Of a stretch of 23,911 nt of DNA, positions 2,754 through 3,984 are shown piece by piece. Origin of the DNA: a virus. Its lineage: Duplodnaviria > Heunggongvirae > Uroviricota > Caudoviricetes. The DNA is taken from the IMG/VR virus record IMGVR_UViG_2526164594_000022. One strand, written 5' to 3'. The notes under the pieces were generated by a model. That model ran no database searches. It was given only the letters and a program-made list of their open reading frames with translations, and was not told the DNA's origin. The position numbers were made by a program, and so were the translations under genes. How positions within the stretch are numbered: the stretch's first letter is position 1; every line of letters begins with the position of its first letter.

Positions 2754-3676
2754 ATGACAAATACAGCAAAAATACTCAACTTCGGCAGAGGTAACTTTGC
2801 CGGACAGGAGCGTAATGTGGCAGATCTCGATGATGGTTACGCCAGACTATCAAATATGCTGCTTGAGGCTTATTCGGGCGCAGATCTGACCAAGCGACAG
2901 TTTAAAGTGCTGCTTGCCATTCTGCGTAAAACCTATGGGTGGAATAAACCAATGGACAGAATCACCGATTCTCAACTTAGCGAGATTACAAAGTTACCTG
3001 TCAAACGGTGCAATGAAGCCAAGTTAGAACTCGTCAGAATGAATATTATCAAGCAGCAAGGCGGCATGTTTGGACCAAATAAAAACATCTCAGAATGGTG
3101 TATCCCTCAAAACGAGGGAAAATCCCCTAAAACGAGGGATAAAACATCCCTCAAATTGGGGGATTGCTATCCCTCAAATTGGGGGATTGCTATCCCTCAA
3201 AACAGGGGGACACAAAAGACACTATTACAAAAGAAAAAAGAAAAGATTATTCGTCCGAGAATTCTGGCGAATCCTCTGACCAGCCAGAAAACGATCTTTC
3301 TGTGGTTAAACCGGATGCTGCAATTCAGAGCGGCAGCAAGTGGGGAACAGCAGAAGACCTGACCGCCGCAGAGTGGATGTTTGACATGGTGAAGACCATC
3401 GCGCCATCAGCCAGAAAACCGAATTTTGCTGGGTGGGCTAACGATATCCGCCTGATGCGTGAACGTGACGGACGTAACCACCGCGATATGTGTGTGCTTT
3501 TCCGCTGGGCCTGCCAGGACAACTTCTGGTCCGGTAACGTGCTGAGTCCGGCCAAACTCCGCGACAAGTGGACCCAGCTCGAAATCAACCGTAACAAGCA
3601 ACAGGCAGGCGTGACAGCCAGCAAACCAAAACTCGACCTGACAAACACTGACTGGATTTACGGGGTGGATTTATGA
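2754..3676 (+). pseudogene. O: Replication initiator O, frameshifted by a 23-bp iteron duplication
   Basis: N-terminal ORF 2754-3362 and C-terminal ORF 3164-3676 both match lambda O (MTNTAKILNFGRG... and ...DCYPSKQGDTKDTITKEKRKDYSSENSGESSDQPENDL...TDWIYGVDL) but in different frames. Total span is 923 bp, i.e. 900 bp of O plus 23 bp. Confidence 0.8.
3102..3210 (+). repeat. ori-lambda-type iterons, five copies (one duplicated) followed by an A/T-rich region
   Basis: 19-bp iterons ATCCCTCAAAACGAGGGAA, ATCCCCTAAAACGAGGGAT, ATCCCTCAAATTGGGGGAT (twice, 23-bp period), ATCCCTCAAAACAGGGGGA, then an A-rich tract ACAAAAGAAAAAAGAAAAG. Confidence 0.85.
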
Positions 3677-3984
3677 AAAACATCGCCGCACAGATGGTTA
3701 ACTTTGACCGTGAGCAGATGCGTCGGATCGCCAACATCGATAACCAGGACATGACGATATCGGTCTGGGTCTTTCCTGATACTGATATTTCAGATGTATC
3801 GCGTGAGTTAATTGCGGCAATTAAACAGGGGTATCTAACAGTAAAAGCCGCCGGGGTATGGGCGGGGGGCATTGAAACACCTTCGGTGGAAACTCCATCG
3901 GAAGGCTCTAAATTTTTTGGTTTTGATATGGATAACGAATTCATCAGTGGTTTTGATGTAGGGGCATGGGGAGTATTACTCTGA
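3673..3984 (+). pseudogene. Chimeric ORF: first ~21 codons of replication protein P fused in frame to an unrelated C-terminal segment, possibly the end of a tail/baseplate gene
   Basis: MKNIAAQMVNFDREQMRRIAN matches the lambda P N-terminus; from ~3736 the sequence no longer matches P. The ORF stays open and ends overlapping the tail-fibre gene start. Confidence 0.4.

What the first reader, a model, noticed from the sequence alone, without database searches (positions are those of the whole stretch)
3673..3984. Abrupt junction: lambda P truncated after ~21 codons and joined in frame to tail-module sequence
Seen in sequence: the ORF starts MKNIAAQMVNFDREQMRRIAN like lambda P, but from ~3736 the sequence no longer matches P and runs in frame for ~80 codons before ending overlapping the tail-fibre gene start. 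Everything lambda carries between P and the side tail fibres is absent. Inference: a large deletion or illegitimate recombination created an e14-like minimal prophage and a chimeric ORF.
Basis: partly seen in the sequence, partly recalled or inferred. Interest (0 to 1): 0.4.

Follow-up and report, generated by a model that had tools for sequence, protein, structure and literature searches.

The report
Deletion scar in O157 prophage Sp1
The 103-codon ORF is the scar of a roughly 25-kb deletion in the known, degraded E. coli O157:H7 prophage Sp1/CP-933H, which joined the first 21 codons of replication gene P to the last 82 codons of a baseplate gene; it is an ordinary pseudogene, not a new gene.

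Summary
Window 3673-3736 is identical to the 5' end of lambda-type P. From 3737 to the stop at 3984 the sequence is the 3' 248 nt of a 226-aa DUF2612 baseplate-wedge gene. That gene follows baseplate J and precedes the tail-fibre gene in lambdoid prophages with myovirus tails.

The window is the thrW locus of E. coli O157:H7 (prophage Sp1/CP-933H followed by the P4-like Sp2). The same junction is in 204 of 5426 complete E. coli genomes, and every serotype-labelled one of the 60 listed is O157.

E. coli TBE6 carries a full-length prophage at the same thrW site. Its cI, cro and cII proteins are identical to those here, and its P and DUF2612 genes are intact. Against it, the junction is a 24,887-bp deletion with no microhomology. 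The reading frame is kept by chance.

Databases already call the ORF "partial replication protein P for prophage CP-933H".

One unexplained side result: 95 nt downstream, at TAT|C (3832-3835), at least 13 unrelated prophage remnants from public data have their deletion endpoint at exactly this nucleotide.

The parts
3673..3736 (+). 5' end of the lambda-type replication gene P (codons 1-21 plus the first base of codon 22); its ATG overlaps the stop of O
   Evidence: 100% identical to P of phage 21, lambda imm21 and TBE6. PGAP annotates a 'phage replication protein, missing C-terminus' here.
3737..3984 (+). 3' 248 nt (codon 145 position 2 to the stop) of a 226-aa DUF2612 baseplate-wedge gene
   Evidence: 100% identical to the intact genes of E2348/69 and TBE6. 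Pfam DUF2612 scores 161.6 bits in the intact protein but only 20.3 bits in the ORF. PDB relatives are baseplate wedge proteins. PGAP mislabels this piece 'phage replication protein, missing N-terminus'.
3673..3984 (+). Chimeric 103-codon ORF (P'::'DUF2612), a deletion scar
   Evidence: The exact protein is on record as 'partial replication protein P for prophage CP-933H'.
3736..3737 (.). Deletion junction, equal to loss of 24,887 bp (L010 14719-39605) relative to the intact TBE6 prophage; 0 nt of microhomology
2754..3676 (+). Replication gene O containing ori, frameshifted by a 23-bp tandem duplication of one iteron (3146-3168 = 3169-3191)
   Evidence: Otherwise 100% identical to O of lambda imm21 and TBE6. 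PGAP marks it 'frameshifted'.
1295..2721 (.). Lambda-type immunity region: cI (1295-2008, minus strand), pR-like promoter (2056-2084), cro (2109-2309), cII (2428-2721)
   Evidence: ORFs, annotation, promoter TTGACT-17-GATAAT. The same protein accessions for cI, cro and cII occur in TBE6.
3984..4694 (+). Tail-fibre gene (gp53-like C-terminal domain), translationally coupled to the chimeric ORF
4316..6185 (.). Invertible tail-fibre segment bounded by inverted crossover sites (4316-4335 and 6166-6185). It holds tfa (4715-5158, plus strand), a second tfa (5130-5723, minus strand) and an alternative fibre C-terminus (5723-6184, minus strand).
   Evidence: Inverted repeat at 95% complementarity. The site at 4309-4334 matches 16 of 18 specified positions of the invertase crossover consensus that I wrote from memory. 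Caudo_TAP domains are and the annotation.
6247..6801 (+). Serine DNA invertase (annotated pinE)
   Evidence: Resolvase and HTH_7 domains; annotation.
3832..3835 (+). TAT|C: recurrent deletion endpoint seen in other, unrelated prophage remnants. It is intact here and is not this window's junction.
1..819 (.). IS1203/IS629 copy (IS3 family) at the left edge of the remnant, absent from strain 86-24
9954..10000 (+). 47-bp copy of the 3' end of tRNA-Thr (thrW): right attachment site of Sp1 and left boundary of the P4-like Sp2
   Evidence: 100% identical to L010 4457-4503 inside thrW. No intact tRNA is present in the window.

Best explanation
The ORF is a pseudogene left by one large internal deletion in a lambdoid prophage integrated at thrW, the element known as Sp1 (Sakai) or CP-933H (EDL933) of E. 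coli O157:H7. The ancestor had a lambda-type immunity and replication region (cI, cro, cII, O, P). This was followed by nin genes, Q, lysis genes, head genes, a myovirus tail, baseplate J, a DUF2612 wedge gene, a tail fibre with a Pin-invertible segment, and cargo genes. An illegitimate, homology-independent join removed about 24.9 kb, from the second base of P codon 22 to the first base of DUF2612 codon 145. The two frames matched by chance (1 in 3), so the ORF runs to the native DUF2612 stop, which overlaps the tail-fibre start. The product keeps 21 of 233 residues of P, with no domain recognisable by Pfam. It also keeps the last 82 of 226 residues of the wedge protein, which score below the family threshold. 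I infer that it has no function of its own. The deletion, together with a frameshift in O and two smaller deletions to the left, fixed the prophage in place. The retained cI/pR circuit probably still drives SOS-inducible transcription into the scar and the tail-fibre genes; this last step is inferred from published microarray data, not shown for this ORF.
For: The breakpoint is mapped to the base. The intact TBE6 prophage sits at the same thrW site. It is collinear with window 813-3736 (3 mismatches plus the 23-bp duplication) and with 3737-4338 (98.7%), with 24,887 bp between them there. Its cI, cro and cII protein accessions are identical to those of the O157 remnant. The same single-genome architecture (lambda-type early region plus DUF2612 and tail-fibre late end) is found in the E2348/69 argW prophage and in vB_EcoM-606R2. 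The junction is fixed in 204 complete genomes, and every serotype-labelled one of the 60 listed is O157. The protein is already recorded as partial P of CP-933H and clusters with 226-aa DUF2612 proteins. For the ORF, Pfam gives only a sub-threshold DUF2612 hit and no P domain. Asadulghani et al. 2009 (PMC2669165) describe Sp1 as a highly degraded lambdoid prophage that neither excises nor replicates, but whose residual early genes are induced by mitomycin C.
Against: A single step is the simplest reading but is not proven; several successive deletions would leave the same junction. The right side is slightly more diverged from TBE6 (7 mismatches in 603 nt, all beyond the first 248 nt) than the left (3 in 2.9 kb). 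TBE6 is therefore a close relative, not the literal parent. With no microhomology, the molecular route of the join cannot be read from the sequence. Expression and lack of function of the 103-aa product are inferred, not measured.
Confidence: 0.9

Rival explanations
1. The junction arose by illegitimate recombination between two different resident prophages (a lambda-like one and a separate Mu/P2/e14-like one), not by a deletion inside one phage genome.
For: No record in the phage collection covers both sides of the junction. The tail side is slightly more diverged from TBE6 than the early side.
Against: Single prophages carrying both modules in the required order exist. One (TBE6) sits at the same thrW site with identical cI, cro and cII proteins; another is in E2348/69. 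The remnant is bounded by one integrase remnant next to thrW and one att repeat.
Confidence: 0.06
2. The 103-aa ORF is a real, selected gene. For example, it could be an SOS-inducible small protein whose wedge-derived C-terminus helps the retained tail fibre to be made or donated to other phages.
For: The frame is open and coupled to the tail-fibre start. Sp1 early genes are induced by mitomycin C. The sequence is invariant in 204 genomes.
Against: Invariance is expected in a young clone. No homologue with this architecture exists outside O157. An open frame is a 1-in-3 chance outcome. Pfam finds no P domain in the 21 residues kept, and the wedge fragment falls below the family threshold. The frameshift in O separates the ORF from upstream translation.
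Confidence: 0.04
3. The endpoint in the wedge gene was not random. The 3' third of DUF2612 genes may be a preferred region for prophage-truncating deletions, and this junction may belong to a minor cluster at codons 143-147. This reading is compatible with the best explanation.
For: Four independent junctions fall within five codons: P0023, this window, P0003 and P0011. Third-position diversity is low at codons 146-151. A nucleotide-precise hot spot lies 95 nt downstream.
Against: The counts are small. The protein census is biased against junctions far upstream, because such chimeras merge into the main 90% cluster. The other junctions in this cluster that could be checked use 3-6 nt of microhomology, whereas this one uses none.
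Confidence: 0.25

Closest known systems
Prophage Sp1 (O157:H7 Sakai), also called CP-933H (EDL933)
   Same: It is this element. It has the same thrW location next to proA, the same junction, and the same protein, recorded as 'partial replication protein P for prophage CP-933H'. It is described as a highly degraded lambdoid prophage with defective replication (PMC2669165).
   Different: The window's strain also carries an IS1203/IS629 copy at the left edge, as in TW14359 and EC4115. In the papers I read, I found no statement that the second half of the ORF is a baseplate-wedge gene, and no base-level mapping of the deletion.
Full-length thrW prophage of E. coli TBE6 (NZ_CP154401.1); also the argW prophage of EPEC E2348/69 and vB_EcoM-606R2
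   Same: These have the same architecture and near-identical sequence on both sides of the junction. TBE6 shares the integration site and has identical cI, cro and cII proteins.
   Different: They keep the 24.9 kb between P and DUF2612 codon 145, and TBE6 has an intact O. E2348/69 uses a DnaB-type helicase instead of P and sits at argW.
e14 element of E. coli K-12 (from my own knowledge of e14; the invertase here is annotated pinE by PGAP)
   Same: It is a degraded lambdoid remnant that keeps a repressor region, a tail-fibre gene with a Pin-invertible segment, and cargo genes at the far end.
   Different: The integration site differs (icd for e14, thrW here), as does the immunity region. Sequence identity to e14 was not tested here.
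Replication-arrest deletion hot spots such as terB (recalled from the literature, not checked here)
   Same: The side observation at TAT|C has the same signature: one fixed endpoint, many variable partners, and 2-6 nt of microhomology.
   Different: No arrest site, protein-binding site or stable structure was found at TAT|C. The window's own junction is not at that site.

Membership tests
Lambda replication protein P (DnaB loader) | Near full-length protein (233 aa in lambda-type phages) recognisable by the family profile | tested here: not met
   Only codons 1-21 are P-derived. The Pfam scan of the ORF gives no P-family hit.
DUF2612 baseplate wedge protein (PF11041) | Score above the Pfam gathering threshold across the domain | tested here: not met
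   The ORF scores 20.3 bits against a cutoff of 23.5 and covers only profile positions 135-177 of 181. The intact relative scores 161.6 bits.
DUF2612 baseplate wedge protein (PF11041) | Gene lies between baseplate J and the tail-fibre gene | tested here: not met
   The tail-fibre gene follows, but O and the P fragment precede instead of baseplate J. The intact synteny is seen.
O157:H7 prophage Sp1 / CP-933H | Integrated at thrW downstream of proBA and followed by the P4-like Sp2 | tested here: met
   Annotated context in strain 86-24, which is 99.97% identical to window 816-16400. The att repeat is at 9954-10000.
O157:H7 prophage Sp1 / CP-933H | Identical junction sequence in reference O157 genomes | tested here: met
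   The 100-nt junction probe matches EDL933, TW14359 and others at 100%. The exact protein is named for CP-933H.
e14-type remnant (lambdoid remnant with a Pin-invertible tail-fibre cassette) | Serine invertase next to a segment bounded by inverted crossover sites, carrying alternative fibre ends and assembly genes | tested here: met
   Resolvase and HTH_7 domains. Inverted repeats at 4316-4335 and 6166-6185. The site matches 16 of 18 consensus positions.
e14-type remnant (lambdoid remnant with a Pin-invertible tail-fibre cassette) | Integration in icd and sequence identity to K-12 e14 | tested here: not met
   The element is integrated at thrW. Identity to e14 itself was not tested.
Invertase-mediated (pix/gix-type) rearrangement as the origin of the junction or of the TAT|C hot spot | A crossover-site-like 26-mer at the breakpoint | tested here: not met
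   The best match near 3700-3900 is 11 of 18 positions, at 3772. The true site at 4309 scores 16 of 18.

The most novel reading that the evidence does not exclude
The ORF contains, intact, a nucleotide-precise deletion hot spot at TAT|C (3832-3835; the Tyr177 codon of the wedge gene). In public data at least 13 unrelated left-hand partners are joined exactly there. They include dsdC, ren, a dnaB-like helicase, a holin, the portal, the cement protein (twice), baseplate J and others. The joins share only 2-6 nt of microhomology and always keep the tail-fibre side. This is about as many junctions as at all other positions of the gene combined. If it reflects a site-specific DNA break or replication arrest in this prophage family, it would be a mechanism that preferentially turns these phages into 'tail-fibre + invertase + cargo' remnants like Sp1. 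The window's own junction, 95 nt upstream in a minor cluster, might be a related event.
Probability: 0.4. Interest if true: 0.5.

Novelty: already known. Interest (0 to 1): 0.2.

Why it matters
For this window it matters mainly for annotation. The ORF should be read as a P'::'DUF2612 deletion scar, not as two fragments of a 'phage replication protein'. Sp1 can now be described base by base as a derivative of a TBE6-type prophage, carrying three deletions, one iteron duplication and, in some lineages, one IS. It is a clear example of how a lambdoid prophage is grounded while keeping its repressor circuit and its invertible tail-fibre and cargo end. The recurrent TAT|C endpoint is the only part that could lead anywhere new. 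It suggests that prophage decay in this family is not random, and this can be tested by collecting deletion survivors in the laboratory.

Tried and rejected
- **Stand-alone 85-aa proteins.** Many database proteins start at 'MQIVDNQDMT', which looked like a natural small gene. The two I examined are artefacts: one is an intact gene interrupted by a run of N, the other sits at a contig end.
- **Invertase crossover site.** None is present at the junction or at TAT|C.
- **DNA secondary structure.** A 17-nt palindrome (3808-3824) and a GC hairpin (3848-3865) flank TAT|C. Folding is not better than shuffles (z = -1.2 and -0.9), and the palindrome is not conserved at synonymous sites.
- **Homology as the cause of the hot spot.** Native partner sequences share only TA to GGTATC with the site.
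- **Insertion rather than deletion.** The dsdC fusion keeps the gene order expected for a deletion inside an argW prophage of the E2348/69 type.
- **Scan of one genome per species.** It gave a single hit and was uninformative.
- **Reciprocal junctions.** A search for copies that keep the left side up to TAT and lose the right side found 0 of 120. This sample is too small to prove one-sidedness.
- **Mechanisms considered from memory only.** These were CRISPR/Cas3, restriction sites, gyrase sites, pac/cos-like sites, and IS insertion followed by excision. None fitted the sequence, and none was tested.
- **Literature.** Searches found no description of the hot spot.
- **Structure prediction.** Not run. 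Only the 103-aa chimera could have been submitted, and the result would not change the verdict.

Full report
**What is at the coordinates.** The ORF at 3673..3984 (+) encodes 103 aa. A megablast of window 3300-4400 against phage records splits cleanly. Positions 3300-3736 are 100% identical to the O-P region of phage 21, lambda imm21 and similar phages. Positions 3737-4335 are 97.7% identical to a 'hypothetical protein | side tail fiber' region of the prophage-derived record vB_EcoM-606R2. No record covers both halves.

Alignments with P and with the 606R2 gene place the break between 3736 and 3737. Codons 1-21 and the A of codon 22 are P. The TC of codon 22 and codons 23-103 are codons 145-226 of a 226-aa protein. 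The stop TGA at 3982-3984 shares its A with the ATG of the tail-fibre gene, exactly as in the intact relative.

**What the downstream half is.** The intact 226-aa protein is a DUF2612 protein (PF11041, 161.6 bits). The chimeric ORF gives only a sub-threshold hit (20.3 bits against a cutoff of 23.5) to the last quarter of the profile, and no hit to a P family.

In 606R2, E2348/69 and TBE6 the gene lies directly after baseplate J and directly before the tail-fibre gene. PGAP sometimes names it 'baseplate wedge 1 family protein'. Its solved relatives are baseplate wedge proteins: 7kh1 gp17, Pam3 gp23 and 9zd7 gp89. A paper on Pseudomonas phage K8 reports HHpred similarity of a DUF2612 protein to T4 gp6 (PMC9887876).

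**Where the window comes from.** The region is 100% identical to many E. coli O157:H7 chromosomes. In strain 86-24 the annotated context reads as follows:
- proBA, tRNA-Thr (thrW), a partial integrase and a hypothetical gene;
- cI, cro, cII, a frameshifted 'replication protein', and two 'phage replication protein' fragments;
- a gp53-like tail fibre, two tail-fibre assembly genes, a partial tail protein and pinE;
- a GIY-YIG protein, an AraC regulator, and then a P4-like element.

This is Sp1 (Sakai) or CP-933H (EDL933), followed by Sp2. Window 816-16400 is 99.97% identical to 86-24. Window 1-819 is an IS1203/IS629 copy present in TW14359, EC4115 and others but not in 86-24; a published IS629 survey also lists an Sp1 insertion in some O157 strains (PMC3271280).

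A 100-nt probe across the junction hits 204 of 5426 complete E. coli genomes at 99% identity or more. Of the 60 listed, every one that carries a serotype label is O157. The exact 103-aa protein is on record as 'partial replication protein P for prophage CP-933H' on at least 1000 contigs. It sits in a 90% cluster whose other members are 226-aa DUF2612 proteins.

**The ancestor and the size of the deletion.** E. coli TBE6 has a full-length prophage at the same thrW site. Its gene order is:
- integrase, xis, exo-bet-gam, kil, cIII, N;
- cI, cro, cII, O and P (233 aa), ren, nin genes, Q;
- lysis genes, terminase, head genes, myovirus tail genes, baseplate J, DUF2612;
- a gp53-like fibre, tfa, an inverted tfa and fibre end, and an invertase.

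Its cI, cro and cII carry the same protein accessions as the O157 remnant. Window 813-3736 aligns to L010 11818-14718, with 3 mismatches and one 23-nt gap. Window 3737-4338 aligns to L010 39606-40208 at 98.7%. The junction therefore equals loss of L010 14719-39605, which is 24,887 bp.

The flanks are GCCAACA|ACATG in P and CAGATAG|TCGATAAC in the wedge gene. They share no microhomology. The EPEC E2348/69 argW prophage shows the same single-genome architecture, with the same Cro protein and a wedge-gene 3' end 100% identical over the 248 nt, but with a DnaB-type replication module.

A lambda-type early region and this myovirus late end thus belong naturally to one phage genome. An internal deletion is the simplest origin. 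I cannot prove that it happened in one step.

**Other lesions in the remnant.**
- Relative to TBE6, strain 86-24 lacks L010 5443-10773, which runs from the integrase N-terminus through most of N. The join has a 7-nt overlap. It also lacks L010 11249-11824.
- O is 100% identical to lambda-type O except for a perfect 23-bp tandem duplication of one ori iteron (3146-3168 = 3169-3191). This shifts the frame and adds a fifth iteron-like repeat.
- The invertible segment is intact. Inverted crossover sites lie at 4316-4335 and 6166-6185. The site at 4309-4334 matches 16 of 18 positions of the invertase consensus that I wrote from memory. A Resolvase plus HTH_7 invertase is present.
- A 47-bp copy of the thrW 3' end at 9954-10000 marks the right end of Sp1.

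**How it works.** What is shown: the ORF is a fusion of two gene fragments at a deletion junction. What is inferred: it has no function of its own. Pfam recognises no P domain in the 21 P residues that remain, and the wedge fragment lacks most of its domain.

The lambda pR-like promoter (TTGACT-17-GATAAT, 2056-2084) and an intact LexA-family cI are present. Asadulghani et al. 2009 reported that Sp1 neither excises, replicates nor is packaged. [quoted passage not shown] The scar and the tail-fibre genes downstream are therefore probably transcribed from pR during the SOS response. This is an inference; N is deleted, so read-through efficiency is unknown.

The open frame across the junction is a 1-in-3 chance outcome. 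Its invariance among O157 genomes reflects a young clone, not selection.

**Comparison with known elements and novelty.** The element is Sp1/CP-933H, and the ORF has long been annotated as a partial P. In the sources I read, I did not find three things: the identification of the second half as a baseplate-wedge gene, the exact 24,887-bp mapping against an intact relative at the same site, and the iteron duplication. These are refinements of a known, degraded prophage. PGAP's label 'phage replication protein, missing N-terminus' for the wedge-derived half is an annotation error carried over from the chimera. The resemblance to e14 is architectural only.

**An unexplained side observation.** The protein search with the ORF returned many other chimeras that end in the same wedge C-terminus. 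Aligning all hits to the intact protein shows 13 distinct N-terminal partners joined at exactly Tyr177 ('...|YLTVKAAGVW'). Only about 13 junctions fall at all other positions: 75, 143, 145 (this window), 146, 147, 153, 156, 160, 162, 180, 181 and 189.
- **DNA confirmation.** DNA from five such loci shows unrelated sequence up to TATC and then the cassette, on at least four different alleles.
- **The partners.** They are the chromosomal gene dsdC, a region beside ea10, a dnaB-like helicase, the cement protein (at two positions), the portal, baseplate J, the ORF before baseplate J, a holin, ren (an out-of-frame join) and others. Most are therefore internal deletions of the same prophage family.
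- **Microhomology.** Native partner sequences share only TA, TAT, TATC, GGTAT or GGTATC with the site.
- **Pattern-anchored scans.** These found TATC-junction chimeras in 2 of 120 viral contigs and 2 of 103 metagenome contigs, involving three different partners. At most one junction lay anywhere else upstream.
- **Rarity and one-sidedness.** In complete E. coli genomes at most 4 of 544 copies are truncated, so the events are rare. No reciprocal junction, keeping the left side, was seen in 120 contigs.
- **Mechanism.** I found no invertase site, no significant DNA structure and no synonymous-site conservation at the spot. The signature resembles replication-arrest or fixed-break deletion hot spots that I recall from the literature, but the mechanism is unknown.

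The window's own junction is not at this site. It lies in a weaker cluster at codons 143-147 that coincides with low third-position diversity. The census has two known biases: out-of-frame junctions are mostly invisible, and junctions far upstream merge into the main protein cluster.

**Verdict.** The feature is an ordinary deletion scar in an already named defective prophage. Interest is low. The TAT|C hot spot is recorded as a separate lead.

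Noticed in passing
window 3832-3835 (TAT|C, inside the ORF); examples in L005, L008, L011, L012, L013, L088, L221, L226: This is a nucleotide-precise recurrent deletion endpoint. At least 13 unrelated partners are fused exactly here in public data, with only 2-6 nt of microhomology, and the tail-fibre side is always the one kept. The mechanism is unknown.
   Followed up: partly
window 3146-3191: A perfect 23-bp tandem duplication (ATCCCTCAAATTGGGGGATTGCT twice) of one ori iteron lies inside gene O. It frameshifts O and gives five iteron-like repeats instead of four. 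O is otherwise 100% identical to lambda-type O.
   Followed up: yes
window 3724-3984 (PGAP features in L001 12425-12685): RefSeq/PGAP labels the wedge-gene-derived half of the ORF 'phage replication protein, missing N-terminus'. Related truncated DUF2612 fragments in Salmonella and E. coli are named 'replication protein P' (P0009, P0025, P0041, P0042). The wrong name appears to have spread from the O157 chimera.
   Followed up: partly
window 1-819: An IS1203/IS629 (IS3 family) copy abuts the remnant just left of the 127-aa ORF. It is present in TW14359-like and EC4115-like strains and absent in 86-24.
   Followed up: partly
L001 9047-9053 and 9521 (corresponding to the left of window 820) versus L010: Sp1 carries two further deletions relative to the intact TBE6 prophage. 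One is about 5.3 kb (integrase N-terminus through most of N) with a 7-nt overlap at the join. The other is 576 bp and removes an NYN-domain gene region.
   Followed up: partly
window 4316-4335 and 6166-6185; invertase 6247-6801: The Pin-type invertible tail-fibre segment is intact, with two alternative fibre C-termini and two tail-fibre assembly genes. Database contigs of related cassettes occur in both orientations (L005 versus L006).
   Followed up: partly
window 784-1167 (minus strand), 6859-7683 (minus strand), 8456-9199 (plus strand): Three cargo-like genes are kept in the remnant. One is a 127-aa ORF with no Pfam hit, in the position that rexAB occupies next to cI in lambda. The second is a LEM-3-like GIY-YIG nuclease-domain protein after the invertase. 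The third is an AraC-family regulator. Other remnants of this family carry different cargo at the same end (AAA_15/FRG, DUF262, retron Ec67).
   Followed up: no
window 9954-10000: A 47-bp copy of the thrW 3' end separates Sp1 from the P4-like Sp2. Sp2 carries an 'ABC-three component system' and an AAA ATPase (annotation of L001 20437-22137, approximately window 11736-13436).
   Followed up: no
codons 146-151 of DUF2612 genes (window 3741-3758): Third-codon-position diversity is unusually low across 99 distinct alleles (GAT AAC CAG GAC ATG). This coincides with a small cluster of independent deletion junctions that includes this window's junction.
   Followed up: partly
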